Origin: an uncultured Dehalococcoidia bacterium
GTDB taxonomy: Bacteria > Chloroflexota > Dehalococcoidia > GIF9 > UBA5629
DNA length: 64,000 nucleotides
Direction of reading: 5' to 3'
Assembly (NCBI GenBank): GCA_937975645.1
Contig: CALJTV010000009.1
Span: 24,850-88,849 of the forward strand
The translations under genes and the position numbers were made by a program. A model generated the notes under the pieces. It was not told where the DNA came from. It worked only from the letters and a program-made list of their open reading frames with translations, and did no database searches. Positions 2,517 through 34,501 of this stretch are shown here, piece after piece (the stretch's first letter is position 1; every line of letters starts with the position of its first letter).

Positions 2517-3374
2517 TTGAATATAAGACTCACCTGCTGTGTCCTGCTGGTCGTCCTGTTCCTTATTCTCTCAATAGCGGTTGGCTGTATTCCCACCAGA
2601 GACGATATAACCCAGCCTAAGCTGAAGGTAGCCAGCACCACGAGCCTGTGCGATTCTGGGCTTTGGGAATGGCTTGAGCCGCTTTTTGAGGCAAAATATA
2701 GGACTGATCTGCAGGTACTATGTGTTGGCACCGGCGTAGCCATGCGCTATGGAGAGAGAGGGGATGTGGATGCGATTGTTGTTCATGACCCAGAAAGGGA
2801 GGAGAAGTTTATTTCTCAGGGGTATGGGGCTGTGCGAATGCCGTTTGCCTGTAATAAGTTTCTCATTGTGGGACCTGAAGATGACCCGGCGCGTATAAGG
2901 GGGCTGAAGCCGGAAGAAGCGTTTGCTAGGTTAGCTGCGTATGGTGATGCTACTTTCGTCTCCCGTGGTGACGAGTCCGGCACACATGTCAGGGAGAAAG
3001 AAATATGGCGGATGGTGGGTATCAATCATGAGCAGATTACGAAGGAACAGTGGTATGTGGAAGTTGGGTCAGGTATGGGCTTAACTTTGCAACTAGCTGC
3101 CGAGAGAAGAGGCTACACGCTTACTGACAGGGCAACTTTTCTAACCTTTAGAAAAAAGCTGGACATTGTGCCTCTGGTTGAGGAGGGCGAGATCATGCTC
3201 AATGTTTATTCAATTATCGTCGTCAATCCTGAGAAATGCCCCGGGGTGAATTATCAAGCTGCAAAGCTGCTTTCAGACTTTTTGCTCTCTAAAGAGGTGC
3301 AAGCTGTGTTGACTGATTACGGGGTGCAAGCATATGGGGAGCGGCTGTTCCTTCCCTGCTGCGATTGTAATTAG
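2517..3374 (+). CDS. tupA: tungstate/molybdate ABC transporter substrate-binding lipoprotein (TupA/WtpA-like)
   Basis: Reading frame of ORF 2391..3374. Likely start is the TTG at 2517, placed 7 nt after the AAAGGAGAG RBS. The N-terminus is a signal peptide with lipobox (LSIAVGC). The PBP-type fold is indicated by conserved blocks (TTSLCDSGLWEWLEPLFE, GDVDAIVVHD). It is followed by permease and ATPase genes. Confidence 0.75.
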   Translation: MNIRLTCCVLLVVLFLILSIAVGCIPTRDDITQPKLKVASTTSLCDSGLWEWLEPLFEAKYRTDLQVLCVGTGVAMRYGERGDVDAIVVHDPEREEKFISQGYGAVRMPFACNKFLIVGPEDDPARIRGLKPEEAFARLAAYGDATFVSRGDESGTHVREKEIWRMVGINHEQITKEQWYVEVGSGMGLTLQLAAERRGYTLTDRATFLTFRKKLDIVPLVEEGEIMLNVYSIIVVNPEKCPGVNYQAAKLLSDFLLSKEVQAVLTDYGVQAYGERLFLPCCDCN

Positions 3375-3422
3375 GAATTTTCACGGTGCTACCCGGATCT
3401 AATTCAGTCGGCTGATAAAGCA

Positions 3423-4109
3423 ATGGAAGAACTAGGGCGTGGCTTCGTTAAGGCGGTAGAGCTCATCGTCTCCCTTGATGCGGAGGTAGTGGAGATAACT
3501 GTGAGGTCACTGATGATCTCAGCGACATCTTGTGGTATTGCTTGTGCCATCTGCTTTCCACTGGGGGGACTGGTGCATTTCAGTTCTTTTCCGGGAAAAA
3601 AGTTGTTCATGAGCTTGGTGCAGACCCTGTACAGTCTGCCTACAGTGCTAGTAGGGCTGTTTGTTTTTGTGCTGCTCTCACGCTCGGGACCGCTTGGTAG
3701 CTTGGGGCTGCTGTTCACTCCAGCAGCCATGGTAATAGGGCAGGTAATTTTTGTCAGTCCGATTGTGCTCGGACTGGCTGTGTCTGCTTTGAATGGCTTG
3801 GACATCGCTTTGTACGACGCAGCCGTGGGTCTTGGTGCCAGCAAGTTTCAGGCTGTTTTACAGGTGATGAGAGAAGCCCGCTATGGCCTGCTTACAGCGG
3901 CGGTGATGGGTTTCGGGAGAGCTATCTCCGAGGTAGGGCTATCATTGATGGTTGGTGGTAATATAAAGGGGTTCACACGTACATTGACCACTGCCATTTC
4001 CCTTGAGACCTCCAAGGGCAACATTGAGCTGTCGATAGCACTGGGAATAGTATTGCTAGTGTTAGCCCTGATGGTGAATCTAGTAACAGGTTGGTTGCAA
4101 CGCAGGTAA
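3423..4109 (+). CDS. tupB: ABC transporter permease (tungstate/molybdate TupB-like)
   Basis: 228-aa polytopic membrane protein with an ABC permease signature region. It lies between the binding-protein and ATPase genes. Confidence 0.8.
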   Translation: MEELGRGFVKAVELIVSLDAEVVEITVRSLMISATSCGIACAICFPLGGLVHFSSFPGKKLFMSLVQTLYSLPTVLVGLFVFVLLSRSGPLGSLGLLFTPAAMVIGQVIFVSPIVLGLAVSALNGLDIALYDAAVGLGASKFQAVLQVMREARYGLLTAAVMGFGRAISEVGLSLMVGGNIKGFTRTLTTAISLETSKGNIELSIALGIVLLVLALMVNLVTGWLQRR

Positions 4110-4110
4110 A

Positions 4111-5202
4111 ATGGCATTGATAGAGGCTATCAAGCTGGAAAAATATTATCAGGGCAGGCAGGTGCTGAGAGGCATAAGTCTACAAATCGATAAAGGGGAA
4201 GTTTTGGCTCTTATAGGTCCCCGTGGTGCTGGGAAAACCACGCTTCTCAGAATCCTAGGCCTCCTGGAGCTACCATCAAGGGGCGAGGTCTATTTTGATG
4301 GTGTCAATGTGACTTCATCTGGACGTTTAAGGCTCTGGGCAAGGCGTAGGATGTCCTTTGTGGCGCAAAAGCCGGTGGTGTTTTCAGGGAGCGTTCGGGA
4401 CAATGTTGCCTGTGGTCTCAAGTGGCGTGGCAGAAACTCAAAGTCGGCGGCGGACAGGATCGAGGCTGCCCTGGGACTGATAGGGATGTCCGAATATGCT
4501 GACCGGGACGCTAAAGCCCTTTCTGTAGGCGAGATGCAGATGATGGCTCTATCCCGGGCACTGGTCGGCGAGCCAGAGGTGCTGTTTTTGGACGAGCCTA
4601 CAGCTAGTCTTGATCCAGTGTCAGCAGCAAGGGTAGAGACGGTTCTAGAGCGGCTAATTAAACTGCGAAATATGACAGTTGTGATGACAACCCATGATAT
4701 GGGGCAAGGACAAAGACTGGCATGGCGCATTGGGGTGTTGATGGCTGGGGAGTTGCTTCAAACAGGTGAACCCCGTGAGATATTCTGCTCGCCGGCGACC
4801 AGAGAGGTGGCAGAGTTCGTCGGTGTGGAGAATATTCTAGCAGGCGAGGTGGTAAGCAAGAGCGATAGCCTGGCGGTGATAGACATTGGTGGAGCTAGGC
4901 TGGAGGCACTCACCGAATGTAGGTTGGGTGACTTGGTGTGGGTAACCATCAGACCAGAGGATGTCACTTTTGCCAGGGTAAGAGAGCAGACCAGTGCAAG
5001 AAATGTGTTTCGGGGTGTTGTAACCAAAGTGGCAGGTGTTGGTGCTCTATTGCGGATTGAGGTTGACTGTGGTTTTCCTTTATTGGGAGTGTTGACTAAG
5101 AAATCGGCTGAGGATATGGGCATTGAGCGAGGTGATGAGGTCTATGTCAGCTTCAAAGCTACTACTGTGCATGTGATCAGGCGCCAGCAGTTAAAGCTCT
5201 GA
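4111..5202 (+). CDS. tupC: ABC transporter ATP-binding protein with C-terminal TOBE/MOP oxyanion-binding domain (TupC/ModC-like)
   Basis: Contains Walker A (GPRGAGKTT), ABC signature (LSVGEMQMMALSRAL) and Walker B (LFLDEPTASLD). A C-terminal extension of about 120 aa is typical of molybdate/tungstate transporter ATPases. Confidence 0.8.
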   Translation: MALIEAIKLEKYYQGRQVLRGISLQIDKGEVLALIGPRGAGKTTLLRILGLLELPSRGEVYFDGVNVTSSGRLRLWARRRMSFVAQKPVVFSGSVRDNVACGLKWRGRNSKSAADRIEAALGLIGMSEYADRDAKALSVGEMQMMALSRALVGEPEVLFLDEPTASLDPVSAARVETVLERLIKLRNMTVVMTTHDMGQGQRLAWRIGVLMAGELLQTGEPREIFCSPATREVAEFVGVENILAGEVVSKSDSLAVIDIGGARLEALTECRLGDLVWVTIRPEDVTFARVREQTSARNVFRGVVTKVAGVGALLRIEVDCGFPLLGVLTKKSAEDMGIERGDEVYVSFKATTVHVIRRQQLKL

Positions 5203-5233: not shown

Positions 5234-5896
5234 TCATGTTTTCCTGTGGTTTTGTAACTGCTGAAGGAGCCAGGAACACCAAGCTTCAATCCCATGGCCG
5301 GATTTACAGGACACCTCAAAAATAGTCACTCTGGGGTTCAGGCCAGTGACCTTTTTATGAAAGCCGGCGAGGTCGAATTCCTGTAATGGGAGGAGGTCAA
5401 TTTTGTTTATTACCACCGCATCAGCTAGAGAGAACATAATAGGGTACTTGGCTGGTTTGTCGTCGCCTTCAGCAATACTTGAGACCACTACTTTCCTGTG
5501 CTCGCCAAGGGAAAAACCCGCCGGACAGATCAAATTGCCCACGTTCTCGATAAATAGCAAATCAATAGTCTTCAACGGCAGCTTCTCCAGCGCATTGGTA
5601 ATCATATGGGCTTCTAGGGAGCAGCTACCACCAGTGTTTATCTGGACTACGGGGATCCCCTCTTTGCTGATTCTATCGGCATCTATTTTGGAGGCGATGT
5701 CGCCTTCGATAACAGCCAGCCGTAATTGGTGACGCAGGTGTGCTATCGTGCCCAGGAGGAGGCTGGTCTTACCGGCGCCCGGAGACGACATGAGGTTAAT
5801 GGCTAGGATATTGTATCTGTCAAGCAGTCCTCTGTTTTGGGCAGCTATAGCATCGTTGGCACTGGCAATATTTTTTAGTACTTTTATTCGTTTCAT
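5234..5896 (-). CDS. hypB: hydrogenase nickel incorporation GTPase HypB
   Basis: Contains MKRIKVLKNIASANDA...NLMSSPGAGKTSLL (P-loop) and the CPAGFSLGE metal-binding region. The start is taken at the internal MKRIKV (5896) so it does not overlap hypA. Confidence 0.9.
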   Translation of the reverse strand: MKRIKVLKNIASANDAIAAQNRGLLDRYNILAINLMSSPGAGKTSLLLGTIAHLRHQLRLAVIEGDIASKIDADRISKEGIPVVQINTGGSCSLEAHMITNALEKLPLKTIDLLFIENVGNLICPAGFSLGEHRKVVVSSIAEGDDKPAKYPIMFSLADAVVINKIDLLPLQEFDLAGFHKKVTGLNPRVTIFEVSCKSGHGIEAWCSWLLQQLQNHRKT

Positions 5897-5901
5897 CGCA
5901 T

Positions 5902-6243
5902 CTATTCGACCTCTATGCTTTCGATGAAGCAGCTCTGCCCATTTGTTATCTCCAGATTGGTGCTGCGGCAGCAAGGACATGCCCAGCTAGAGTCTTCAAG
6001 CTTGAAACTGGTCTGGCAATCACGACAGTGCAGCTCGGCAGGCACCGTCTCGAAATCGATGCTCGCATTTTGAGCGATGCTGTCTTTTTTCAAGAAGTCA
6101 AAGTAGAACTGTATGCACTCTCCGACGACCCCAGATAGTTCCCCTATGATGAGTCTAATTTTTGTTATCTGGCTTGCCTGTGCTGCCTTAGCTTCGTTTA
6201 TAGCGATATCAAGTATGTTTTGCGTTATGGCTAGTTCATGCAC
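5902..6243 (-). CDS. hypA: hydrogenase nickel insertion protein HypA
   Basis: 113 aa beginning MHELAITQNIL, with a CRDC...CPCC zinc-finger pair typical of HypA. It is immediately upstream of hypB. Confidence 0.9.
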   Translation of the reverse strand: MHELAITQNILDIAINEAKAAQASQITKIRLIIGELSGVVGECIQFYFDFLKKDSIAQNASIDFETVPAELHCRDCQTSFKLEDSSWACPCCRSTNLEITNGQSCFIESIEVE

Positions 6244-6470: not shown

Positions 6471-7469
6471 ATGATAATTGCCGTTGATGCTGAAGGGGGT
6501 GACTATGCCCCTCGTGAAGTAGTGAGGGGTGCCATTGCGGCTGTACGGCAATATCCGATTGAGATAGTGCTTGTGGGCAAAAAGGCGATCCTTGAGATGC
6601 TTCTACGCCGTTATTCCAAGGTGTCCGGAATCTCTATTATTGATGCCAGAGAAGTTGTTCGGGACGACGAAGACCCGGTACAGGCTGTGCAGAGTAAGCC
6701 GGATTCTTCTGTAGTCATTGGTGCTAGACTGGTACACGATAGAGTTGTGGATGGCTTTGTTTCTGCGGGGAGCACAGGTGCTACAGTGGTTGCCTCCTTC
6801 CTCAGCTTGAAGATGATCCCGGGCATCCAGAGGATGGGTATCTGTGCTGTTGCTGACCTCAATCAGCCACAACCAACGCTTATCATCGATGTAGGGGTGA
6901 ATGTGAACTGCAAACCGATATTTCTGGTGCAATTTGCACAGCTTGCAAACATACTGGCAGAACATGTCCTAGAAATAAAGTCCCCAAGGGTGGGACTGTT
7001 AAATGTCGGTGAGGAGGAACTAAAAGGCAGTGCCCTAGCTCGAGAAGCGTACCAGATGTTGAAGAAAACTAATCTGAACTTTATCGGAAATGTGGAGGGG
7101 TTCGATGTACTACGGGGCAAAGCTGACATAATCGTCACCGATGGCTTCACCGGCAATGTGCTTATCAAGACTATAGAAGGATACTCCGAGGTTGTTCAGG
7201 AGCTGCTAGAGCTTGGTGAGCTGGCGGGGATCGATCGGTATTTGACGGGACCGGCGTTAGCACAATACGTACAGCTCACCTCTGTGGTTAGGAAACTGGA
7301 CTACAAACAATATGGTGGTGCCTGTTTACTAGGTCTGGAGGGTAACATCGTCATAGCCCATGGTCGCAGTCGCTCGACAGCTATCAGGAATGCAATCTAT
7401 CTGGCTTACTTGGCTGCAAAGCAAGGCATAGTAGAGGCTCTTAAGGCGAGTGCCTATGCCACGGAGTAG
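6471..7469 (+). CDS. plsX: phosphate acyltransferase PlsX
   Basis: Begins MIIAVDAEGGDYAP...GFVSAGSTGA, over the full PlsX length. A strong AAGAGGGGG RBS precedes the start. Confidence 0.9.
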   Translation: MIIAVDAEGGDYAPREVVRGAIAAVRQYPIEIVLVGKKAILEMLLRRYSKVSGISIIDAREVVRDDEDPVQAVQSKPDSSVVIGARLVHDRVVDGFVSAGSTGATVVASFLSLKMIPGIQRMGICAVADLNQPQPTLIIDVGVNVNCKPIFLVQFAQLANILAEHVLEIKSPRVGLLNVGEEELKGSALAREAYQMLKKTNLNFIGNVEGFDVLRGKADIIVTDGFTGNVLIKTIEGYSEVVQELLELGELAGIDRYLTGPALAQYVQLTSVVRKLDYKQYGGACLLGLEGNIVIAHGRSRSTAIRNAIYLAYLAAKQGIVEALKASAYATE

Positions 7470-7500
7470 ACGGTCTATTGCAAAGCTTCTGGATCTACTA

Positions 7501-10101
7501 TCACGTCGTGGTTACAACAGCCCTACTCTTGGTGAACAGTATCTTACCCTCTTTGGCATCGATTTCGATCTTATCGCCGTCCTTGAACTCCCCTTCGAGT
7601 ACCTTCATGGCTAAGGGATCGAGTATCAATCTCTGAATTGCCCGTCGAAGAGGTCGGGCACCATATGCAGGGTCATAGCCTTCTCTGATCAGAAGTTCCT
7701 TGGCAGTTTCGGAAAGCCTGATATCTATGTGACGGTTGGCGAGCCGCCTTCTAACATTTTCAAGTTGTAAGTCCACGATTTGTTTTATATGTTCGATGCT
7801 TAGGGGATGGAATATTATTATTTCGTCTATGCGGTTGAGGAACTCTGGACGGAACTGCGCCCTAAGCGCTTCTAAAGTTCGGCGCCGTATTTCGTTCTCT
7901 TGCCCCGGACCGAGGTCTACGATCCACTGGCTCCCCAGGTTGCTGGTCATTATCAGGACGGTGTTTTTGAAGTCCACAGTACGCCCGTGACCATCGGTTA
8001 GACGCCCGTCATCCAGTATTTGCAGCAGGACGTTGAACACATCGGGATGCGCCTTTTCTATTTCGTCCAGCAGTACCACGGTATAGGGGCGGCGTCTTAC
8101 TGCCTCGGTGAGTTGACCACCCTCTTCGTAGCCCACGTAACCCGGCGGAGCACCTATAAGCCGTGATACGGTATGTTTTTCCATATATTCTGACATGTCA
8201 AGACGAACCATGGCTCGTTCGTCGTCAAACAGAAATTCAGCCAATGCTCGTGCCAGTTCTGTTTTACCCACGCCGGTAGGTCCAAGGAAGATGAAGCTCC
8301 CTAGCGGGCGGTTCGGATCCTGAATGCCGGCGCGAGCACGTCGGATAACGTTGGCAACGGCTTTAACAGCCTCGTCCTGCCCTACAATGCGCTTATGTAG
8401 GCGTTCCTCCATGTGAACGAGCTTCTGAATTTCGCCTTCCAGCAATCGGCTTACCGGTATTCCTGTCCAGCGGCTGACCACCTCGGCGATGTCTTCTTCA
8501 TCTACCTCTTCTTTAAGCAAGCGCTGTCCCTTTCTGGTGGAAAGTATTTCCTCCTTTCTCTTCAGCTGTTTCTCCAGTTCCACTAGTGTACCATATTTAA
8601 GTTGAGCCGCCTTTTCAAAGTCTGCTGCGCGCTCTGATTTTTCTATCTCGTGCCTCACTTGTTCTAGGTGTTCTTTGAGCTGTTGTAGTTCATGGATGTC
8701 CTTTTTCTCCTCCTCCCACTGCATTCGTAGCCTGCGCTCCTCCTCTTTCAAGTTTGACAGCTCCTTTTCTAGGGCGTTCAGTCTTTCTTTTGAGACGGCA
8801 TCCTGTTCTTTTCTTAAGGCTTCCCTTTCTATCTCGAGCTGCATGATGCGGCGTGTAACTTCATCCAATTCTGCTGGCATACTGTCGATCTCAGTTCTCA
8901 ATTTGGCGGCAGCTTCGTCTACTAGGTCTATAGCCTTGTCCGGCAGGAAACGCTCGGAGATGTAACGGTTTGAGAGCACTGCTGCCGCTACCAGGGCTGA
9001 GTCCTTTATGCGCACCCCGTGATGTACTTCGTAGCGTTCTTTAAGACCACGGAGGATGGAGATGGTGTCCTCCACTGAAGGCTCGTTGACAATTATGGGC
9101 TGGAACCTCCTTTCTAAAGCGGCGTCCTTCTCTATATGCTTGCGGTACTCATCTAGGGTGGTGGCACCGATACAGTGTAGTTCACCACGAGCTAGCATAG
9201 GTTTCAGCATGTTTGAAGCATCTATCGCCCCTTCGGCAGCGCCGGCACCGACTACGGTGTGTAGTTCGTCGATGAACAGGATTATTTCGCCTTCTGATTG
9301 CTGGATTTCCTTAAGGACTGCCTTGAGTCTGTCTTCAAATTCGCCGCGGTACTTGGCTCCGGCTATCAGTGCACCCATATCCAGTGCCACGATGCGCTTG
9401 TTTTTCAGCCCTTCAGGAACATCGCCCCGGACTATACGCTGGGCTAATCCTTCGACGATGGCTGTCTTGCCAACGCCTGGCTCGCCGATAAGGACAGGGT
9501 TGTTCTTTGTCCTCCTGGACAGCACTTGGATCACCCGTCTGATTTCCTCGTCGCGACCTATTACTGGGTCCAGCTTACCCCGGCGGGCGATATCAGTGAG
9601 GTCGCGTCCGTACTTTTCCAACGCCTGGTATTTACCCTCAGGGTTAGGATCGGTCACTCTCTGACTGCCCCTTACGGAAGCCAGCACCTGGTAAACATTG
9701 TCCTTGGTCACGCCATGGACTTTGAGAATTCGTGCTGCGCTGGTATTTTCTGTTTCCAGGATAGCCAGCAATAGATGCTCTGTGCTGATATATTCGTCCT
9801 TAAATCTACTAGCCTCCTTTTCAGCCATATCCAGCACCTGCTTTAGGCGCGGTGATACGTAGACCTGCACTGGTCCATATGCCTTAGCTAAACGCCCCAA
9901 CTCACTTTCAAGCTGGCGTCTTATCGAACTTGTGTCAGCGCCTAGCTTTGACAGAATCTGTGGTACTATTCCACCTTCCTGTTCCACAAGGGTGCAAAGC
10001 AGATGCTCTGTATCGACCTGGGTGTGATTGTGCTCTTCGGCAAGCTTTTGGGCTGCCAGCAGAGCCTCCTGTGCCTTTTCAGTGAACTTGTTTATGTTCA
10101 T
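7501..10101 (-). CDS. clpB: ATP-dependent chaperone ClpB
   Basis: 866 aa with two AAA+ modules ([15 protein letters not shown]; [15 protein letters not shown]), a long coiled-coil middle domain and a Clp N-terminal domain. Confidence 0.95.
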
Positions 10102-13006: not shown

Positions 13007-13019
13007 CAGGAGAAAAACT

Positions 13020-13274: not shown

Positions 13275-13299
13275 GAACAAGTGTCGTAATGTCGCGCCG

Positions 13300-15049: not shown

Positions 15050-15050
15050 T

Positions 15051-17122: not shown

Positions 17123-17153
17123 CACATTTGAGAAAGATGCAGGAGGGTTAGAA

Positions 17154-19215: not shown

Positions 19216-19216
19216 C

Positions 19217-19900: not shown

Positions 19901-19920
19901 CAACCTGTTAAAGGAGGTAA

Positions 19921-20793: not shown

Positions 20794-20829
20794 AGGTGCC
20801 AGATATACTAGGCAACGGTGCAGTGACTG

Positions 20830-23511: not shown

Positions 23512-23533
23512 ATCTTTGAAAAGGAGCTGAGCC

Positions 23534-24439: not shown

Positions 24440-24506
24440 AATTGATAATCATTTCTGATTCTGCTAGAATATAATCAGCCCAACCACTGTGGAAAGGAGC
24501 CTCAGC

Positions 24507-26813: not shown

Positions 26814-26834
26814 GTGGAGTTCGAGAGGTAAGTA

Positions 26835-27536: not shown

Positions 27537-27547
27537 TAAGGAGGCTT

Positions 27548-28105
27548 GTGATGACTATGACTTTGCCGTATCACCGGGTCAATGTATTGACTGGCACCAA
27601 GGCAGCCAGGATTATCGAGGACCCGAGTGAGTATGCCCATTTGATCAAGCGCGCCAGCAGGCCGCTGCTTGTCCTCGGACCCAGAATTTTGACCATGTCT
27701 CTCGGTGAAAGACTGCTTGCGGAGTATGCAGTGGAAATTGCCAAGGCTGCAGACATACCTATCTGTGCTACGGCTCATACCCAGAAGAAATTACTGGAGC
27801 TGGGTGTACAGCCAGCCAGCAACTATGACCTTATTGAGATAATCAATCATCTTAAAGACCCTGAATGGCGCGGGGTCAAGAAAGAGGGTAACCACGATCT
27901 TGTCATATTCCTCGGTGTTAGGACCGATCTTGGTGAGCAGGGGCTATCCACATTGAAACATTTTGCGCCACACCTCAAAACGATGACGTTATGCAAGTAC
28001 TACTATCCAAATGCCAGTTACTCCCTTCCTAACTTCCGCAAGGACGAGCAATGGAAGGAGTTCTTGGACAAATTGATAGAAAATCTCAAAACGAAGGAGG
28101 CGTAA
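27548..28105 (+). CDS. cdhB: acetyl-CoA decarbonylase/synthase complex epsilon subunit
   Basis: 185 aa with size and position typical of CdhB. A strong AAGGAGG RBS precedes the start. It is directly followed by cdhC, whose start (28108) is 2 nt after the cdhB stop. Confidence 0.75.
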   Translation: MMTMTLPYHRVNVLTGTKAARIIEDPSEYAHLIKRASRPLLVLGPRILTMSLGERLLAEYAVEIAKAADIPICATAHTQKKLLELGVQPASNYDLIEIINHLKDPEWRGVKKEGNHDLVIFLGVRTDLGEQGLSTLKHFAPHLKTMTLCKYYYPNASYSLPNFRKDEQWKEFLDKLIENLKTKEA

Positions 28106-28107
28106 AG

Positions 28108-29334: not shown

Positions 29335-29366
29335 TGTGTAAGTTTACGTAACACTAGGAGGTAGAT

Positions 29367-30734
29367 ATGCCGCTCAAAGGTACTGATATTGTAAAGAAGC
29401 TGCCTGATGGAGGGAAGAAGAATTGCAAGGAATGTGGGTTCCCGACTTGTTTTGCCTTTGCGATGAAGCTGGCAGCGGCTGGCACCACGCTGGACAAGTG
29501 TCCTTACCTCGCTGCCGATGTCAAAGCTGAACTTGAGGAGGCACTGGCGCCACCCATAAAGTTGGTGACCATTGGCAAAGGAGGCGCTGCACTTCAAATT
29601 GGGAATGAAGAGGTGATCTATCGCCACGAGAAGACTTTTATTCACCCACCTGGTATCGGCTTGCTCATCTCGGACAAAGAACCGGAAACCACGGTTGGTG
29701 ACAAATTAGCAAAAGTGAAGGAGCTGCAGTTCCCTTGGGTGGGACGCGTTCTGAAAGCAGATGTTCTGGCTTTACAGTCCCAGTCCGGAGACAAAAGCAA
29801 ATTTGAGGCTCTGGTGAAACGTGCCTGCGATACCACTGATTTGCCGCTGGTGCTGATTTCAGAGGATGTCGATGTCCTGCTCTCTGGATACCAGCTTTGT
29901 AGTGAAAGGAAGCCGTTACTTTACCCGGTCACCAAGGAAAATATAGAAAAGATTATCGCAGCTGTCAAAAATAAACCGACCCCTCTAGCGGTCAGGGGTA
30001 GTAGCGTCGAAGAGTTGGTGCCATTGACGATTAAACTTAAGGAAGCTGGGCTTGAGGAGATTGTTCTTGACCCCGGTTCGAGAAACTTTAGAGATGCTGT
30101 GCGGGATCAGACGTTGATAAGACGGGCAGCCCTAAAACAGAACTTCAAACCACTGGGTTATCCCACAATCGGTTTCCCGTGTTTCATGAGCAACGATGAA
30201 GTGAAGCAGGTTCTTCTGGCTGCCATGTTTGTTATCAAGTACCCGGGCATTATTATTCTTTCGGATTTTGACCAGTATTCGCTGTTGCCCTTACTGGTGC
30301 AGAGACTAAATATCTACACTGATCCTAGAATTCCAATGTCGGTGGAGCAGAAGATCTACGAAATAGGTGAGCCGACTTCTGAATCCCCTGTGTTGATCAC
30401 CAGCAACTGGGCATTGACCTATTTCATCGTTGCCTCTGAGATTGAAGGCAGCAAAGTCCCGTCGTGGTTGCTGGTTAAGGACACAGAGGGGCTGGGTGTG
30501 CTCACTGGTTGGGCTGCAGGTAAATTCTCGGGAGATTCTATAGGGCCATTTGTCAAAAAGAGTGGAATAGAAGAGAAAGTGAGACACAGGCGGCTTGTCA
30601 TCCCTGGCAAAGTGGCACGGATCAAAGGTGAACTGGAGGAGGCTTTGCCCGGCTGGGAGATAATTGTTGGTCCCAGGGAGGCAAGTGAAATACCAGCTTA
30701 TTTGCCCAACCTAGTTCAGAAGTGGAAGAACTGA
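29367..30734 (+). CDS. acsC: corrinoid iron-sulfur protein large subunit (AcsC/CdhE)
   Basis: N-terminal [4Fe-4S] motif CKECGFPTCFAFAMKLAAAGTTLDKCP followed by TIM-barrel and B12-binding domains. Confidence 0.9.
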   Translation: MPLKGTDIVKKLPDGGKKNCKECGFPTCFAFAMKLAAAGTTLDKCPYLAADVKAELEEALAPPIKLVTIGKGGAALQIGNEEVIYRHEKTFIHPPGIGLLISDKEPETTVGDKLAKVKELQFPWVGRVLKADVLALQSQSGDKSKFEALVKRACDTTDLPLVLISEDVDVLLSGYQLCSERKPLLYPVTKENIEKIIAAVKNKPTPLAVRGSSVEELVPLTIKLKEAGLEEIVLDPGSRNFRDAVRDQTLIRRAALKQNFKPLGYPTIGFPCFMSNDEVKQVLLAAMFVIKYPGIIILSDFDQYSLLPLLVQRLNIYTDPRIPMSVEQKIYEIGEPTSESPVLITSNWALTYFIVASEIEGSKVPSWLLVKDTEGLGVLTGWAAGKFSGDSIGPFVKKSGIEEKVRHRRLVIPGKVARIKGELEEALPGWEIIVGPREASEIPAYLPNLVQKWKN

Positions 30735-31207
30735 AGGCAGAACTGGCTGATATTCTGGAACCGAGCAAAAGGGACAGGCGGTTTCTGATTTCGCTCCTTC
30801 AGGAAATCCAGCAGAGGCTAGGTTATCTACCCGAAGATGCGATGTTAGCCCTGGCTGATTTTTTAGGTGTGCCGGGGAGCACGGTCTATGGTGTAGCCAC
30901 TTTTTACAACCAGTTCCGTTTCGCACCCCAGGGCAAGCATCAGGTAAAAGTGTGTATGGGCACTGCCTGCCACCTTGCTGGTGGGCAGCTTGTTCTTGAG
31001 GCTATGTCACGCGAGCTGCAGGTGGATGTCGGCGGGGTTACTCCTGACAGAACGTTTGGCTTGGAAAGGGTTGCTTGTGTTGGCTGTTGCGCACTGGCTC
31101 CAGTGGTGGTCATAAACGGTGCTGTTTACCCCAGGATGAGCCCTCCGAAAGTGGAGGAGGTTCTGGTGAACATAAAGTTAGGCAATCGGGAACATACGAT
31201 CGAGTAG
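30722..31207 (+). CDS. NuoE/HoxE-like thioredoxin-fold [2Fe-2S] protein
   Basis: Cys ligands in the C(x4)C...C(x3)C arrangement (CMGTACHLAGG...CVGCCALAP). GTG start overlaps acsC by 13 nt. Confidence 0.8.
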   Translation: MEELKAELADILEPSKRDRRFLISLLQEIQQRLGYLPEDAMLALADFLGVPGSTVYGVATFYNQFRFAPQGKHQVKVCMGTACHLAGGQLVLEAMSRELQVDVGGVTPDRTFGLERVACVGCCALAPVVVINGAVYPRMSPPKVEEVLVNIKLGNREHTIE

Positions 31208-31253
31208 TGTTGACTCCGCCCACAGCATGTAGTTCTTCTGTGTAAATTTTTCA

Positions 31254-33134
31254 ATGGTCTTCGATGAGATTCTGAGACGTGCCAAACAAGAATGGGAGTC
31301 GTTCTGTTGTGGTGATGTTCCCAGGATTCTTGTTGGTACAGCCACCTGTGGTCGTGCTGCTGGTGCCCTAGCTGTTGTTGAAGCTCTAAAAAAAGAGCTG
31401 GAGAGATGCAAACTCCAGGCAACTATAACAGAGGTGGGGTGTATAGGTCTTTGTTCGTTCGAGCCTTTGGTAACCATTATTAAGCCGAATTACTTCACCG
31501 TTTGTTACCACAATGTAACTCCTCAGAAAGTCCCGGTGCTTATTGAAAGCTGTATTGCTAATGATGACCCGTGTCTTGATTTAGCTCTTGGGACGGTTGA
31601 CAGAGATGAACGAGGGGCAGTCTACATCCCTGAGTTACCGCGTTTTGAGCATGAGTACCGTGTTCTTTTGCGGAATTGTGGCTATATTGACCCAAGTAAT
31701 CTAAGTCACTATGTTGCCAACGGCGGTTATGGAGGGCTGAAAAAAGCGTTGGGAATGGCACCAGAGGCTGTCATTGAAGAAGTCAAACTCTCCGGGCTGC
31801 GAGGGCGGGGAGGTGCTGGCTTTCCTACGGGTAGGAAATGGGAGCTATGCCGAAAAGCTTCGGATGAGCCCAAATATGTCATCTGTAATGCTGATGAAGG
31901 AGACCCAGGTGCCTTTATGGACAGAGTGCTTCTAGAGAGCGACCCTTATGCGGTGGTGGAAGGCATGACCATCGCTGCATATGCTGTCGGAGCCAAACAG
32001 GGGTTTGTGTATATTCGGGCTGAGTACCCTTTGGCTGTTGAGCGTTTGGAGGCTGCTTTGCATCAGGCGGAAGAATTGGGGCTATTGGGGGAAAATATAC
32101 TTGGCAAGGGATTCGATTTCAGCATTGAGATTGCTAAGGGTGCAGGTGCATTTGTTTCAGGCGAAGAAACTGCGTTAATACATGCAATTGAAGGCAGAAG
32201 AAGCGTACCGCGTGTGAGGCCCCCTTACCCGGCTGAGAAAGGCTTATGGGGCAAACCTACATTGATCAACAATGTCAAAACCTTTGCTTCTGTGCCGCCA
32301 ATTATTGATAAGAGCGCAGGCTGGTTTTCCAGCATAGGCACAGAGAGCAGCAAGGGCACTGCCATGTTTGCCTTGGCTGGCAAACTGGTTAATACTGGTT
32401 TGGTGGAGGTGGCGATGGGGACGACCCTGCGAAAACTCATCTTCGACATTGGCGGTGGCATCCGTGGTGGCAAAAGATTTAAAGCAGTCCAAATTGGAGG
32501 ACCATCTGGCGGTTGTCTGCCAGAGTCTATGCTTGATGTCCCGGTGGATTTTGACTCCTTGCGGCAGGCGGGGGCGATCATGGGTTCCGGGGGTATCATC
32601 GTCATGGATGAAGACAACTGTATGGTGGACACTGCCAAATTTTTTCTTGACTTTATCCAGAAAGAGTCTTGTGGTAAGTGTTCTACCTGCCGTATTGGCA
32701 CTAAACACTTGCTAAACATACTCGAGGATATTACAGCGGGGCGGGGAAAAATCGATGACCTGAACCTGCTGGCCGAACTATGTGAAGATATAAGAGGGGG
32801 TTCTCTGTGTGGTCTTGGTCGCACTGCACCGAATCCAGTGTTAACCACGTTGAGGTATTTCAGGGGCGAATATGAGGCACACGTCTTGGAAAAGAAGTGC
32901 TCGGCGCTGGTGTGCAAGGACTTAATTGCTTACTATATATTACCGGATAAATGCGAACGTGGCTGCGAGCATTGTGTGCTCGCATGTCCAGCAAAGGCGA
33001 TAAGCCCTGGCAGGGGGGGTGTGAAGGTTATAGACCAGAGCAAGTGTACCAAGTGTGGTAGTTGCCAGCTTGTTTGTCCCCCAGAGTACAGCGCGGTGGT
33101 AAAGGTCTCACCGGTGAGTTCATTACCTCGATAG
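31254..33134 (+). CDS. NuoF/HoxF-like NAD(P)H-binding flavoprotein with N-terminal [2Fe-2S] domain and C-terminal 2x[4Fe-4S] domain
   Basis: FMN/NADH site (GRGGAGFPTGRKWE), [4Fe-4S] N3 motif (ESCGKCSTCRIG) and C-terminal ferredoxin motifs (CERGCEHCVLACP; CTKCGSCQLVCP). Confidence 0.9.
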   Translation: MVFDEILRRAKQEWESFCCGDVPRILVGTATCGRAAGALAVVEALKKELERCKLQATITEVGCIGLCSFEPLVTIIKPNYFTVCYHNVTPQKVPVLIESCIANDDPCLDLALGTVDRDERGAVYIPELPRFEHEYRVLLRNCGYIDPSNLSHYVANGGYGGLKKALGMAPEAVIEEVKLSGLRGRGGAGFPTGRKWELCRKASDEPKYVICNADEGDPGAFMDRVLLESDPYAVVEGMTIAAYAVGAKQGFVYIRAEYPLAVERLEAALHQAEELGLLGENILGKGFDFSIEIAKGAGAFVSGEETALIHAIEGRRSVPRVRPPYPAEKGLWGKPTLINNVKTFASVPPIIDKSAGWFSSIGTESSKGTAMFALAGKLVNTGLVEVAMGTTLRKLIFDIGGGIRGGKRFKAVQIGGPSGGCLPESMLDVPVDFDSLRQAGAIMGSGGIIVMDEDNCMVDTAKFFLDFIQKESCGKCSTCRIGTKHLLNILEDITAGRGKIDDLNLLAELCEDIRGGSLCGLGRTAPNPVLTTLRYFRGEYEAHVLEKKCSALVCKDLIAYYILPDKCERGCEHCVLACPAKAISPGRGGVKVIDQSKCTKCGSCQLVCPPEYSAVVKVSPVSSLPR

Positions 33135-33294
33135 TAAGGATGTGCTATATCTGTAAAACGGCCGGACAAAGAAATTTGCTAGCTTTTTCAGATTAGGCAG
33201 AAGCACTTTTTCTGGATATAATACCTAATTGGTTTTGGGTTGTGCTGGTGATTACAGCATAGTTACTAATTTCTTAAACGGAAAGGAGGCCATT

Positions 33295-34050
33295 ATGGCG
33301 GTGACTATTGTAGTGGCGGGGAAGGGTGGGGTGGGCAAGACAGCAGTGGCTGCATTGCTTATAGAGTCTTTGTCGAAAAAGGGGGTGGTACTGGCTATAG
33401 ATGCCGACCCGAGCACAAATTTGAATCTTGCCTTGGGGCTACCTCTAGGCGAGACGGTGGGTAAGGCTAGGGAAGATATTACCGAAGCGATTCAGAAGGG
33501 TACCCTCTCGCCGACTGTTTCCAAACAGGATGTGCTGGACATGAAGATACGAGAGGCGCTGGTCGAGTCGAATAAGATCGACCTGCTAGCAATGGGTAGA
33601 CCTGAGGGGCCGGGATGTTATTGTGCCGCTAATCATATGCTACGGCTTACTATAGACAGACTAGCCAAAAGTTATGATTACACTGTCATTGATTCAGAGG
33701 CAGGGATGGAGCATATAAGTCGTCAGACGACTCGAGATGTGGATGTACTAATCATAGTTTCGGATGTTACCATACGAGGCATAATGGCAGCTGCCAGGAT
33801 GAAGGAGCTCATAAAGGAGCTGAGGACCAAAGTGGGCAAAATAGTTCTGGTGGTCAACAGGTCAAGAGATGGCTTGCCCCAAGAGATACAAGATGCTATT
33901 CAGAAATACGGGCTGGAGCTAATTGGTGTCATTCCCGAAGACCCATATATAGGTGAGCTTGATATGAAGGGGAGTCCTTTGATCGAGCTTCCAGGAGAAT
34001 CCCCCTTAAGACGTGGGGTTGAGGATATAATTACTAAACTTGGTCTATGA
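33295..34050 (+). CDS. cooC: CODH nickel-insertion accessory ATPase (CooC/AcsF, MinD-family)
   Basis: Begins MAVTIVVAGKGGVGKT (deviant Walker A). About 250 aa. Own promoter-like TATAAT upstream; the ATG follows a GGAAAGGAGG RBS. Confidence 0.85.
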   Translation: MAVTIVVAGKGGVGKTAVAALLIESLSKKGVVLAIDADPSTNLNLALGLPLGETVGKAREDITEAIQKGTLSPTVSKQDVLDMKIREALVESNKIDLLAMGRPEGPGCYCAANHMLRLTIDRLAKSYDYTVIDSEAGMEHISRQTTRDVDVLIIVSDVTIRGIMAAARMKELIKELRTKVGKIVLVVNRSRDGLPQEIQDAIQKYGLELIGVIPEDPYIGELDMKGSPLIELPGESPLRRGVEDIITKLGL

Positions 34051-34087
34051 TCGGTTTCCATTTTCATATCTTGAGAGGTTCTGTTCC

Positions 34088-34501
34088 ATGGGTTCTAAAG
34101 GAAAGAAATTGGTCAGCTTGCGTGAGATAGAGGGGGTAGTAAGCCCTCATCAGCGCCAGATAGATTCTGCGCTGGCAGCACGAAAAGAGGCTCTGGAGTA
34201 CGTCAAAGATGTGGCCGGGCTAGCAAAGTACATTGGAGGTAAAGTTGAGTCGCTCGGGATCGGCGAAGACTGGGCTTTGTGTAAGCGGATATTTCCGGGT
34301 GTAACGGTGTATTTCGTCTTCACCAAGTCTGACGAAGAATTTCCTAGTAGCTTGAAGGTCCTTTTTTCGGGCAGAAGAATAAGCGTTATGAAAGGCGAGG
34401 ACCTCGCGGGGTTCGTCATACTCTATGTAAATCACATGCTCAGGTATATTAGAGAAACGATGGCAAACGAGACGCTGCCTGAAGTATGCTACAGAGTATA
34501 A
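34088..34501 (+). CDS. DUF3786-like protein commonly found in CODH/ACS gene clusters
   Basis: About 138 aa immediately after cooC. My recollection of this family co-occurring with acs genes supports the call. Start chosen at the ATG after a GAGAGG RBS; an alternative start at 34040 is possible. Confidence 0.5.
   Translation: MGSKGKKLVSLREIEGVVSPHQRQIDSALAARKEALEYVKDVAGLAKYIGGKVESLGIGEDWALCKRIFPGVTVYFVFTKSDEEFPSSLKVLFSGRRISVMKGEDLAGFVILYVNHMLRYIRETMANETLPEVCYRV

What the first reader, a model, noticed from the sequence alone, without database searches (positions are those of the whole stretch)
2517..34501. A single 32-kb stretch encodes essentially the whole H2 + CO2 to acetyl-CoA toolkit (metal uptake, metallocentre maturation, hydrogenase, methyl branch end, carbonyl branch)
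The co-localised genes, in order, are:
- tupABC (tungstate uptake).
- hypA, hypB, hypF, hypC, hypD, hypE (NiFe maturation).
- The hydrogenase.
- metV-metF.
- acsE, acsD, cdhA, cdhB, cdhC and acsC.
- nuoE-like and nuoF-like genes.
- cooC and a DUF3786-like gene.

They are interrupted only by plsX, hspR-clpB, two FAH genes and an atypical regulator. In characterised acetogens and methanogens these modules are usually scattered. Such consolidation, with plsX and clpB in the same neighbourhood, looks like a metabolic island. It also defines a candidate co-regulated unit that includes several unknowns (the 13300 lipoprotein, the 26835 ORF and the DUF3786-like gene).
Basis: inference. Interest (0 to 1): 0.55.

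Follow-up and report, generated by a model that had tools for sequence, protein, structure and literature searches.

The report
Hydrogenase-linked Wood-Ljungdahl gene neighbourhood in Dehalococcoidia
An uncultured Dehalococcoidia bacterium keeps its hydrogenase, hydrogenase-maturation, methylene-folate reductase and CO-dehydrogenase/acetyl-CoA-synthase genes side by side; the stretch is inherited rather than a mobile island, it is not a complete pathway, and its most interesting part is a cytoplasmic hydrogenase fused in one operon to the reductase.

Summary
The gene list is essentially correct (Pfam, NCBIfam). Corrections:
- Only one FAH gene lies inside the range.
- Formate dehydrogenase, fhs and folD are absent from the whole 64-kb window, so "essentially the whole toolkit" is overstated.

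The stretch holds at least eight transcription units on both strands, and some have their own controls. A Moco/tungsten riboswitch precedes tupA, and a MerR/HspR-type gene precedes clpB.

Nothing marks the stretch as a mobile island:
- Tetranucleotide composition and GC3 match the flanks.
- I found no tRNA gene, and no integrase or transposase among the ORFs I scanned.
- The whole order, flanks included, is colinear in relatives at about 82% nucleotide identity.
- Other Dehalococcoidia keep the same modules nearby in different orders.

The conserved core is hydS-hydL-(hycI)-metV-metF. In 55 of 55 informative loci from many phyla, a Tat-less, anchor-less group-1-type [NiFe] hydrogenase is followed by metV. 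In 14 of 14 Tat-bearing sister loci it is not. CODH/ACS genes recur next to the Tat-less type (10 of 28 fully flanked loci) and never next to the Tat-bearing type.

My best reading is a soluble H2:methylene-THF oxidoreductase beside a known hybrid CdhABC/AcsCDE operon that carries embedded NuoEF-like genes. The adjacency has one passing mention in the literature and no biochemistry.

The parts
2403..2523 (+). Molybdenum/tungsten cofactor (Moco RNA motif) riboswitch aptamer. It overlaps the ribosome-binding site and the TTG start of tupA.
   Evidence: Rfam RF01055, 80.3 bits against a gathering score of 36. The sequence shows GGAAAGGAGAG followed by TTG at 2517.
2517..5202 (+). tupA-like lipoprotein solute-binding protein (2517-3374), tupB-like permease (3423-4109) and an ABC ATPase with a TOBE domain (4111-5202). 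This is a tungstate/molybdate-type oxyanion uptake operon.
   Evidence: Pfam PBP_like_2, BPD_transp_1, ABC_tran plus TOBE. TupA, TupB and WtpC are the best named NCBIfam hits, but all fall below the equivalog cut-offs. A lipobox follows the start at 2517. Database relatives are named tungstate-binding proteins.
5234..6243 (-). hypB (5234-5896) and hypA (5902-6243), the nickel-insertion chaperones for [NiFe] hydrogenase.
   Evidence: Pfam cobW/HypB and HypA. Gene calls on the identical Logan contig L085 agree.
6471..10501 (.). Housekeeping genes that interrupt the cluster: plsX (6471-7469, +), clpB (7501-10101, -) and a MerR/HspR-type regulator (10079-10501, -).
   Evidence: Pfam FA_synthesis, ClpB domains and MerR_1. 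The order is conserved in L001, L005 and L086.
10694..16067 (+). hypF (10694-13006), hypC (13020-13274), unknown lipoprotein (13300-13983), hypD (13967-15049) and hypE (15051-16067). This is the Fe(CN)2CO-synthesis branch of hydrogenase maturation with one lineage-specific insert.
   Evidence: Pfam HypF domains, HupF_HypC, HypD and AIRS/AIRS_C. The insert matches no Pfam or NCBIfam family. It is only 54-55% identical in L001 and L005, where its neighbours are 77-90% identical, and it is absent from the hyp operons of L006, L012, L014 and L080.
16232..21609 (+). Core operon: hydS (16232-17122, no Tat signal and no membrane anchor), hydL (17154-18713), hycI endopeptidase (18688-19215), metV (19217-19900), metF (19921-20793) and an FAH-family protein (20830-21609). 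The proposed product is an H2:methylene-THF oxidoreductase.
   Evidence: Pfam and NCBIfam. Intergenic gaps run from -26 to +36 nt. HydS residue 7 aligns with residue 6 of the mature periplasmic small subunit 1cc1_S. The upstream frame is closed by stop codons. The module is conserved in 55 of 55 informative Tat-less loci.
21801..22478 (+). Orphan NarL/LuxR-type response regulator with an atypical receiver domain. It has A-G-G in place of the acidic Asp pair but keeps Asp55, Thr83 and Lys105. No histidine kinase gene is adjacent.
   Evidence: Pfam Response_reg plus GerE and the translation. It is present upstream of acsE in L001, L005, L087 and L089, but absent in L088.
22633..33134 (+). Hybrid CODH/ACS operon: acsE, acsD (delta), cdhA (alpha), DUF166/DfsP-like, cdhB (epsilon), cdhC (beta), acsC (gamma), a NuoE-like [2Fe-2S] protein and a NuoF/HydB-like FMN protein with an N-terminal [2Fe-2S] domain and two C-terminal [4Fe-4S] motifs.
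   Evidence: NCBIfam scores against cut-offs: cdhA 1120/781, cdhB 146/101, cdhC 618/356, gamma 569/306, delta 349/280, AcsE 232/259. Pfam. Gaps are 67 nt or less. A promoter-like site TTGACT-17-TACAAT lies at 22561-22589.
33295..34501 (+). CooC/AcsF-type P-loop ATPase (33295-34050) and an N-terminally short DUF3786 protein (34088-34501).
   Evidence: Pfam CbiA/ParA-type and DUF3786, model positions 66-171 of 176. A 160-nt gap and a promoter-like site at 33194-33222 precede cooC. The pair is conserved as 251-aa and 137-aa proteins in L087, L088 and L089.

Best explanation
The 32-kb stretch is a vertically inherited, multi-operon neighbourhood of an uncultured Dehalococcoidia (Chloroflexota) lineage. 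It is not a mobile island and not a complete pathway.

It has two functional cores.

1. A six-gene operon, hydS-hydL-hycI-metV-metF-FAH. The hydrogenase is a group-1 (NiFeSe/"Hys"-like, but all-cysteine) [NiFe] enzyme that has lost both the Tat signal and the C-terminal membrane anchor, so it stays in the cytoplasm. I propose that it docks on MetV. Electrons from H2 would pass from the NiFe site through the three [4Fe-4S] clusters of HydS to the Fe-S clusters of MetV, then to the flavin of MetF, which reduces methylene-THF to methyl-THF. That makes it a soluble H2:methylene-THF oxidoreductase.

2. A hybrid CODH/ACS operon (archaeal-type CdhABC plus bacterial-type AcsCDE) with an embedded NuoEF/HydBC-like flavoprotein, followed by CooC and DUF3786. 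This operon would take the methyl group to acetyl-CoA.

The hyp genes supply hydrogenase maturation. The riboswitch-controlled tup genes, plsX and hspR-clpB are neighbours by descent in this lineage only.

Shown: gene identities, loss of the Tat signal and anchor, operon compactness, strict co-occurrence of the hydrogenase type with metV, synteny and composition.
Inferred: the physical HydSL-MetVF complex, the direction of electron flow and the role of NuoEF.
For: Cytoplasmic hydrogenase:
- The longest possible HydS ORF starts six residues before the position where mature periplasmic small subunits begin.
- All cluster-ligand cysteines and the histidine of the NiFeSe-type small subunit are aligned in 1cc1.
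- HydL has RICGVCP and DPCLACAIH motifs plus a 15-residue tail, with an adjacent HycI gene.
- The closest solved structures are periplasmic [NiFeSe] and [NiFe] enzymes.

Linkage to metV:
- In 80 species-representative loci plus 4 others, 55 of 55 informative Tat-less loci have metV within about 4.5 kb downstream of hydL, mostly within 0.5 kb. None of 14 informative Tat-bearing loci does. Fisher p = 6e-15, not corrected for phylogeny.
- By their record titles, the Tat-less loci span Dehalococcoidia, Anaerolineae, Actinomycetota, Fraserbacteria, Bipolaricaulia, Spirochaetota, Planctomycetota and Desulfotignum.
- Tat-bearing relatives also carry a hydrophobic C-terminal anchor that the Tat-less ones lack.
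- Pairwise divergence of MetV tracks HydS (r = 0.78) and HydL (r = 0.73) as tightly as HydS tracks HydL (r = 0.73).
- Genes of the operon overlap or lie 36 nt or less apart.

Linkage to CODH/ACS:
- CODH/ACS genes adjoin the module in three different arrangements.

Not an island:
- Composition, no tRNA gene, and full colinearity in DAOTWF010000002.1 and JGI contigs.

Energetics, using the potentials quoted in PMC9586279 (H2 -414 mV; methylene-THF -200 mV):
- The reaction gives about -41 kJ/mol under standard conditions.
- It still gives about -13 kJ/mol at 1 Pa H2 (my calculation).

One paper notes the same adjacency in Bipolaricaulia and suggests the same role (PMC11287216).
Against: - No biochemical or structural evidence exists for a HydSL-MetVF complex. 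Gene adjacency and co-divergence would also arise from simple co-transcription of enzymes that act separately.
- Purified MetVF enzymes of acetogens are discussed as ferredoxin-dependent (PMC8515935, PMC8760232; titles and abstracts seen). The hydrogenase could therefore act through a soluble carrier.
- Direct coupling conserves no energy at this step.
- MetF falls into two types among the loci, and HydL-MetF divergence correlates only weakly (r = 0.46).
- The neighbour-joining tree has no outgroup and does not cleanly separate Tat-less from Tat-bearing sequences.
- The loci are not phylogenetically independent, so the Fisher p-value overstates the evidence.
- The single-sequence AlphaFold model of MetV was unusable (pLDDT 44.5).
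- Pathway completeness (fdh, fhs, folD, energy-conserving complexes) in this genome could not be examined.
Confidence: 0.6

Rival explanations
1. The genes are co-transcribed but the enzymes are independent. The cytoplasmic hydrogenase reduces a soluble carrier such as ferredoxin, and MetVF draws on that pool as proposed for acetogen MetVF. The operon reflects shared regulation, not a complex.
For: MetVF-type reductases of Clostridium ljungdahlii and Thermoanaerobacter kivui are described as ferredoxin-dependent or of unknown donor (PMC8515935, PMC8760232, PMC8578170). No fusion of a hydrogenase subunit with MetV was seen in 84 loci. MetF can be swapped for a second type while the hydrogenase stays.
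Against: Reducing ferredoxin (about -420 to -500 mV) with H2 through a non-bifurcating group-1-type enzyme is unfavourable at environmental H2 levels. The association is all-or-none across many phyla (55/55 against 0/14). It coincides exactly with loss of the Tat signal and anchor. MetV co-diverges with HydS as strongly as HydL does. No ferredoxin gene is part of the conserved module.
Confidence: 0.22
2. An electron-bifurcating H2-dependent reductase. HydSL, MetVF and the NuoEF/HydBC-like flavoprotein form one complex in which exergonic methylene-THF reduction drives ferredoxin reduction by H2. That ferredoxin then feeds the CODH. The model is analogous to Mvh-Hdr or to Bfu-type enzymes.
For: The NuoF-like protein has the BfuB/HydB architecture: an N-terminal [2Fe-2S] domain, FMN, and two C-terminal [4Fe-4S] motifs (PMC9304861). 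nuoEF-like genes sit in the CODH/ACS operon here and in the Dehalococcoidales loci. A second pair follows metF-DUF3786 in L031. The energetics would allow it.
Against: nuoF lies within 10 kb in only 8 of 28 fully flanked Tat-less loci, so it is not part of the conserved module. In the window it lies 10 kb from metF, inside the acs operon. No BfuA/NuoG-like bridging subunit is present. The MetF flavin is not known to bifurcate (general knowledge).
Confidence: 0.1
3. The module runs in reverse. Methyl-THF, derived from acetate or from methylated substrates, is oxidised and the electrons are vented as H2. The neighbourhood then serves an oxidative acetyl-CoA pathway in a syntrophic lifestyle.
For: [NiFe] hydrogenases are reversible in principle, and Dehalococcoidia are often inferred to be organic-matter oxidisers. 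The window has no fdh, fhs or folD to show a reductive pathway.
Against: Methyl-THF oxidation coupled to H2 formation costs about +41 kJ/mol under standard conditions. It becomes favourable only below roughly 0.01 Pa H2 (my calculation from the potentials quoted in PMC9586279). Known acetate oxidisers are modelled with reverse electron transport for this step (PMC10689502).
Confidence: 0.06
4. One reading: a horizontally acquired metabolic island that forms a single co-regulated H2 + CO2 to acetyl-CoA unit.
For: The hydSL-metVF module and the CdhABC genes are scattered patchily across phyla, which implies ancient transfers (PMC6305446). Twenty-nine of the genes lie within 32 kb.
Against: Composition is no different from the flanks. 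I found no tRNA gene, and no integrase or transposase among the ORFs I scanned. The stretch is colinear with both flanks in relatives. It has at least eight transcription units on both strands with distinct regulatory elements. fdh, fhs and folD are absent.
Confidence: 0.02

Closest known systems
MetVF-HdrABC-MvhD methylene-THF reductase of Moorella thermoacetica, and the hdrABC-mvhD-metVF cluster of marine Chloroflexi (PMC5736913; Mock et al. 2014 as cited in PMC9586279)
   Same: A MetV plus MetF pair is encoded in one operon with an electron-input module, next to or near the CODH/ACS genes.
   Different: Here the input module is a complete [NiFe] hydrogenase (small and large subunits plus a protease) rather than HdrABC-MvhD. 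There is no HdrA flavoprotein, so no obvious bifurcation site.
Heterodimeric MetVF reductases of Clostridium ljungdahlii and Thermoanaerobacter kivui (PMC8515935, PMC8760232, PMC8578170)
   Same: Same two-subunit architecture: MetF with PF02219 and MetV with PF12225 and conserved cysteines.
   Different: Those operons carry no hydrogenase, and their donor is proposed to be reduced ferredoxin. Here hydSL-hycI lies immediately upstream with gaps of 1-31 nt or overlaps.
Periplasmic group 1a [NiFeSe]/[NiFe] hydrogenases (Desulfomicrobium baculatum 1cc1; Desulfovibrio vulgaris 2wpn; D. fructosovorans 1frf)
   Same: These are the best sequence matches. The large subunit scores E = 1e-137 to 1e-139 and the small subunit E = 1e-76. 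The same Ni-binding motifs are present, the same three-[4Fe-4S] cysteine pattern occurs in the small subunit, and there is a C-terminal tail for proteolytic maturation.
   Different: There is no Tat signal and no membrane anchor, so the enzyme is cytoplasmic. Cysteine replaces selenocysteine (DPC). The partner is MetV rather than a cytochrome.
Hybrid six-subunit CODH/ACS (CdhABC + AcsCDE) of Chloroflexi RBG_13_51_36, Ca. Desulforudis audaxviator and NPL-UPA2 (PMC6305446)
   Same: Same subunit set, with nuoEF-like genes close to the cluster.
   Different: A DUF166/DfsP-like gene sits between cdhA and cdhB. nuoEF lies inside the operon between acsC and cooC. The hydrogenase-metVF operon sits directly upstream in this lineage.
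Mvh-Hdr of methanogens (a hydrogenase docked directly on a reductase) and Bfu-family enzymes (PMC9304861)
   Same: The principle is the same: a soluble [NiFe] hydrogenase is wired by Fe-S clusters to a cytoplasmic reductase of a C1 pathway.
   Different: The hydrogenase belongs to a different group (group 1-like rather than 3c). There is no MvhD or HdrA. Any bifurcation is unsupported.

Membership tests
Group 1a periplasmic uptake [NiFe(Se)] hydrogenase | N-terminal CxxC and C-terminal DPCxxCxxH nickel-binding motifs in the large subunit | tested here: met
   RICGVCP and DPCLACAIH are invariant in the alignment. NCBIfam NF033181 scores 734 bits against a cut-off of 600.
Group 1a periplasmic uptake [NiFe(Se)] hydrogenase | Twin-arginine (Tat) signal peptide on the small subunit, giving periplasmic location | tested here: not met
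   The ORF cannot extend upstream because of stop codons. Residue 7 aligns with residue 6 of the mature 1cc1_S chain. No RRxF motif occurs in any metV-linked HydS, whereas all sister-clade proteins have one.
Group 1a periplasmic uptake [NiFe(Se)] hydrogenase | Selenocysteine at the active site (NiFeSe subtype) | tested here: not met
   The motif is DPC, with no in-frame TGA, in the window and in all 82 loci where the motif was found.
Group 1a periplasmic uptake [NiFe(Se)] hydrogenase | Small subunit with proximal, medial and distal Fe-S cluster ligands, plus C-terminal tail processing of the large subunit | tested here: met
   Cysteine and histidine ligands are aligned with 1cc1_S, including the extra medial-cluster Cys of the NiFeSe type. 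A 15-residue tail and an adjacent HycI gene are present.
MetVF-type methylene-THF reductase | Adjacent metV (PF12225 with conserved cysteines) and metF (PF02219) | tested here: met
   One search gives the Pfam matches. Eleven cysteines are conserved at 90% or more across 65 MetV sequences.
MetVF-type methylene-THF reductase | Physiological electron donor (ferredoxin, NADH via RnfC2, or Hdr-MvhD) | not testable with these tools
   Only gene context is available. No hdr, mvhD or rnfC gene is in the operon, and hydSL is there instead.
Hybrid CdhABC/AcsCDE CODH/ACS | All six subunits present in one cluster | tested here: met
   cdhA, cdhB, cdhC, gamma and delta score above the NCBIfam cut-offs. 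AcsE scores 232 bits against 259.
Complete Wood-Ljungdahl gene cluster (as in Clostridium ljungdahlii) | Formate dehydrogenase, fhs and folD/fchA together with metF and acs genes | tested here: not met
   None of these families is found among the ORFs I scanned across the 64-kb window. Their presence elsewhere in the genome was not testable.
Horizontally acquired genomic island | Atypical composition | tested here: not met
   Tetranucleotide and GC3 values match the flanks.
Horizontally acquired genomic island | Mobility genes or a tRNA insertion site at the borders | tested here: not met
   No tRNA gene. No integrase or transposase family appears in the ORFs I scanned. Flanking direct repeats were not searched for.
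Horizontally acquired genomic island | Presence/absence polymorphism among close relatives | tested here: not met
   Relatives are colinear across both borders.
TupABC tungstate transporter | Equivalog-level match of TupA and TupB | tested here: inconclusive
   These are the best named hits but fall below the cut-offs: TupA 173.5/400, TupB 180.7/320, and WtpC-type ATPase 271/440.
TupABC tungstate transporter | Cofactor-responsive control | tested here: met
   A Moco/tungsten riboswitch lies directly upstream.

The most novel reading that the evidence does not exclude
HydSL-MetVF is a physically coupled, soluble H2:methylene-tetrahydrofolate oxidoreductase, a fifth electron-input class of Wood-Ljungdahl methylene-THF reductase. 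It would have arisen when a periplasmic group-1 [NiFe] hydrogenase lost its Tat signal and anchor and was recruited to MetV. It then spread as a module through at least eight phyla of mostly uncultured anaerobes. It would let cells pull the methyl branch directly with H2 at very low H2 partial pressure.
Probability: 0.45. Interest if true: 0.75.

Novelty: new variant of a known kind. Interest (0 to 1): 0.5.

Why it matters
The electron donor of MetVF-type methylene-THF reductases is a long-standing open point in acetogen bioenergetics, and so is the question of whether this very exergonic step conserves energy. A hydrogenase hard-wired to MetVF gives a concrete, testable answer for Dehalococcoidia, Planctomycetota, Bipolaricaulia and other abundant subsurface lineages. 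The strict rule "no Tat signal means metV next door" also matters for annotation. Tools that call this enzyme a "group 1a periplasmic uptake hydrogenase" will mis-assign its location and role in metagenome-based H2-cycling budgets. The consolidated 32-kb arrangement itself is ordinary: a lineage-specific gene order of known modules.

Tried and rejected
- Exact-sequence look-ups of the window's MetF and NuoF found nothing. The source contig was reached only through TupA.
- After I thought the CODH/ACS block had been inserted between FAH and the uvrD block. I dropped that idea when L088 and L008 proved to be one contig (3,897-bp overlap) with CODH/ACS on the other side of the same mutL-uvrD block. 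The two orders differ by inversion or translocation, not by gain.
- An H2-sensor (group 2b-like) role was rejected. The large subunit keeps a cleavable tail, HycI is adjacent, and the best matches are catalytic group-1 enzymes.
- A selenoprotein form was rejected, because every locus has Cys.
- A PG.H insertion in HydS is shared with Tat-bearing relatives, so it does not mark the clade.
- The neighbour-joining tree gave no clean monophyly of either group.
- The sequence search of solved structures found no MetV homologue.
- Single-sequence AlphaFold models were too poor to search with: MetV pLDDT 44.5 and the lipoprotein 63.8, an all-helical model.
- The 1.84-billion-representative search showed only that small subunits aligning from their first few residues are few among the top hits. 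About five full-length representatives of 150 do so.
- Terminator-like sites were no more frequent than in shuffled sequence.

Full report
OBSERVATION

The evidence is Pfam and NCBIfam. cdhA, cdhB, cdhC and the gamma and delta subunits exceed NCBIfam's curated cut-offs. Start codons were refined from gene calls in relatives and from Shine-Dalgarno sequences.

Three corrections are needed:
- Only one FAH gene (20830-21609) lies inside the range. The second (41434-42450, minus strand) lies outside it.
- The tup genes have tungstate-transporter models as best named hits, but below the equivalog cut-offs.
- The ORFs I scanned across the 64-kb window contain no formate dehydrogenase, formyl-THF synthetase or FolD.

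The right flank holds mutL, uvrD, a dCMP deaminase, hbd, queH, malic enzyme, rpsF-ssb-rpsR, rnpA-yidC-jag, ileS and a fab cluster.

SOURCE

The closest database proteins are from Dehalococcoidia/Chloroflexota metagenome-assembled genomes. A Logan contig from run ERR9287632 is 99.99% identical to window positions 1-8053. The window's own TupA and NuoF are on record on a 100,325-bp contig.

ARCHITECTURE AND REGULATION

The stretch is not one unit. I infer the following transcription units:
1. A Moco/tungsten riboswitch (2403-2523, 80 bits) that overlaps the ribosome-binding site and TTG start of tupA, followed by tupABC.
2. hypA-hypB on the minus strand.
3. plsX.
4. The MerR/HspR-type gene with clpB on the minus strand.
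5. hypF-hypC-lipoprotein-hypD-hypE.
6. hydS-hydL-hycI-metV-metF-FAH, with gaps of -26 to +36 nt.
7. An orphan response regulator whose receiver has A-G-G instead of the acidic Asp pair.
8. acsE through nuoF, with gaps of 67 nt or less.
9. cooC-DUF3786, after a 160-nt gap.

A T-box leader (2021-2282, minus strand) precedes the trp operon on the left flank.

IS IT AN ISLAND?

Composition gives no sign of it. The tetranucleotide correlation of 5-kb windows with the rest of the window is 0.88 ± 0.02 inside the stretch and 0.85 ± 0.04 outside. GC3 is 0.47-0.58 inside and 0.49-0.56 outside. There is no tRNA gene, and no integrase or transposase family appears in the ORFs I scanned.

Synteny argues for inheritance. 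Contig DAOTWF010000002.1 (134,919 bp, about 82% nucleotide identity) is colinear from the trp operon through tupABC, hypBA, plsX, clpB and hypFC. After a 7.8-kb unfetched gap of the expected size, it continues from FAH through the regulator, the whole CODH/ACS operon, cooC-DUF3786, mutL, uvrD, hbd, the second FAH gene and queH. Two JGI contigs (621 kb and 145 kb) and loci L001 and L005 show the same order.

A second arrangement occurs in relatives whose hydrogenase large subunit is 84-88% identical. L008 and L088 are one 375,774-bp contig (3,897-bp overlap). On it the acs operon and the hyd-metVF-FAH operon converge on the same mutL-uvrD-dCMP deaminase block. That order differs from the window by at least one inversion or translocation, and both modules stay within about 30 kb. 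This replaced my earlier idea of an insertion.

A third arrangement occurs in Dehalococcoidales loci L027, L029, L031, L039, L045 and L048. There cdhA-cdhB-cdhC-acsC-nuoE-nuoF-cooC runs directly into hydS. L031 continues with hycI, metV, a second metV, metF, DUF3786 and a second nuoEF pair. Planctomycetota loci have acsE, acsD and cooC upstream and nuoEF downstream.

In L003 and L004 the hydrogenase-metVF module stands alone among unrelated genes.

THE CONSERVED UNIT

A scan of one genome per species with a large-subunit alignment returned 80 loci at 56-90% identity. tblastn synteny analysis and inspection of the N-termini gave an all-or-none pattern.
- All 55 informative loci whose HydS lacks a Tat signal (285-310 aa, beginning a few residues before the first cluster motif) have metV within about 4.5 kb downstream of hydL. 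In most it lies within 0.5 kb, with or without hycI in between.
- All 14 informative loci whose HydS has an RRxF(L/V) motif lack metV. Fisher p = 6e-15, uncorrected for shared ancestry.
- The Tat-bearing small subunits are 366-418 aa with a hydrophobic C-terminal anchor. In most of these loci hydS lies downstream of hydL.
- The Tat-less ones lack the anchor as well.

In the window, the frame upstream of hydS is closed by stop codons. HydS residue 7 aligns with residue 6 of the mature chain of the Desulfomicrobium baculatum [NiFeSe] enzyme. All Fe-S ligands, including the fourth medial-cluster cysteine of the NiFeSe type, are aligned there.

The large subunit has the Ni-binding motifs with Cys, not Sec, and a 15-residue tail. 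Seven loci without the tail also lack an adjacent hycI, which is a consistent detail.

Pairwise divergence of MetV tracks HydS (r = 0.78) and HydL (r = 0.73) as tightly as the two hydrogenase subunits track each other (r = 0.73). MetF tracks less well (r = 0.46) because two MetF types occur.

Among 150 best representatives from 1.84 billion proteins, only about five full-length small subunits align from their first few residues, as expected for proteins without a signal peptide.

CODH/ACS-type genes lie within 10 kb in 10 of 28 fully flanked Tat-less loci and in none of the 15 Tat-bearing ones.

MECHANISM (INFERRED)

A cytoplasmic, anchor-less group-1-type hydrogenase that always sits beside MetV is most simply read as the electron-input module of the reductase. 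The path would be H2, the NiFe site, three [4Fe-4S] clusters of HydS, the MetV clusters (eleven conserved cysteines), the MetF flavin, and finally methylene-THF.

With the potentials quoted in PMC9586279 (-414 and -200 mV), the reaction yields about -41 kJ/mol under standard conditions and still about -13 kJ/mol at 1 Pa H2 (my calculation). The reverse reaction would need H2 below roughly 0.01 Pa.

The rivals are separate enzymes sharing a soluble carrier, a bifurcating super-complex with the NuoEF/HydBC-like flavoprotein, and reverse operation. The NuoF-like protein has the BfuB-type domain set (PMC9304861), but it is embedded in the acs operon and lies near only 8 of 28 modules. Its partner could be CdhAB, MetVF or neither; I cannot tell which.

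COMPARISON WITH KNOWN SYSTEMS

- The hybrid CdhABC/AcsCDE cluster with nearby nuoEF is published for Chloroflexi, Desulforudis and NPL-UPA2 (PMC6305446).
- Marine Chloroflexi have been described with hdrABC-mvhD-metVF (PMC5736913).
- The MetVF types of acetogens lack a hydrogenase.
- In the searchable library I found the hydrogenase-MetVF adjacency in one sentence only. It concerns Great Salt Lake Bipolaricaulia, where a "group 1a HysAB" is noted next to MetVF and suggested to supply electrons (PMC11287216).
- I found no analysis of the Tat loss, the breadth across phyla, or any biochemistry.

- The 13300 ORF encodes a lipoprotein (lipobox LLVGC) and matches no family. It evolves fast: 54-55% identity where its neighbours are 77-90%. 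It is absent from other hyp operons. Its single-sequence model is a low-confidence helical bundle. It is probably not a maturation factor for a cytoplasmic enzyme.
- The 26835 ORF is a DUF166/DfsP-like protein. It is present between cdhA and cdhB in this family (L001, L005, L087-L089) but not in the Dehalococcoidales clusters.
- DUF3786 recurs after cooC or after metF, so it is a consistent but uncharacterised companion of these clusters.

VERDICT

The island and single-regulon interpretation is not supported. The real finding is a widespread hydrogenase-MetVF operon whose hydrogenase has been moved into the cytoplasm.

Noticed in passing
window 2403-2523 (+): A molybdenum/tungsten-cofactor riboswitch (RF01055, 80 bits) overlaps the ribosome-binding site and the TTG start (2517) of the tupA-like gene. 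Metal uptake is therefore controlled by cofactor status, independently of the H2/CO2 genes. The automatic gene call on the source contig starts tupA at 2391, inside the riboswitch.
   Followed up: partly
window 2021-2282 (-): A T-box leader (105.7 bits) lies upstream of trpE. The identical contig L085 and relative L086 show a full trpEGDCFBA operon behind it.
   Followed up: partly
window 13300-13983 (+): A fast-evolving lipoprotein gene with no family match is wedged between hypC and hypD. It occurs only in the window-type relatives. The single-sequence AlphaFold model is an all-helical bundle with mean pLDDT 63.8.
   Followed up: partly
window 26835-27536 (+): A DUF166/DfsP-like gene is inserted between cdhA and cdhB. 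It is conserved in this family (L001, L005, L087, L088, L089) but absent from the cdhA-cdhB junction of Dehalococcoidales loci L027-L048.
   Followed up: partly
window 21801-22478 (+): An orphan NarL-type response regulator has A-G-G in place of the acidic Asp pair of the receiver pocket, and no histidine kinase gene is nearby. It precedes acsE in the window-type relatives but not in L088.
   Followed up: partly
L031 11532-17796: An extended module: hycI, metV, a second DUF5981/MetV paralogue, a divergent MetF (about 41% identical to the window's), a full-length DUF3786 and a second NuoE/NuoF pair. It lies directly after a cdhABC-acsC-nuoEF-cooC-hydSL run.
   Followed up: partly
L034, L036, L040, L044, L047, L049, L060 (hydL 3' ends): In these loci the large subunit ends exactly at the histidine of DPCxxCxxH, with no C-terminal tail. 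None has a hycI gene next to hydL. This suggests protease-independent maturation in part of the clade.
   Followed up: partly
L050, L052, L054, L056-L059, L061, L064, L066, L068, L069, L073, L077: The Tat-bearing sister hydrogenases have an unusual gene order, with hydS downstream of hydL and usually hycI between them. Their small subunits carry a C-terminal hydrophobic anchor.
   Followed up: no
L003 9401-11539 (CP070642.1): In this complete Chloroflexota genome, the gene before hydL is a 167-aa POR-family fragment instead of hydS, and hydL is annotated as partial. The module may be decaying there, or hydS may lie elsewhere.
   Followed up: no
L088 18099-19737: A restriction-modification pair (an EcoO109I-like endonuclease and an N6/N4 methyltransferase) sits between mutL and uvrD in the relative's contig. 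It is absent at the same junction in the window.
   Followed up: no
window 46467-51003 (+): rpsF-ssb-rpsR and rnpA-yidC-jag are typically origin-proximal genes. Here a PQQ-like beta-propeller gene (48222-49490) sits between rnpA and yidC. I saw no dnaA in the window.
   Followed up: no
window 34088-34501 (+): The DUF3786 protein here, and in close relatives (137 aa), covers only model positions 66-171 of 176. L031 has a full-length 218-aa version. This family therefore carries an N-terminally truncated form.
   Followed up: no
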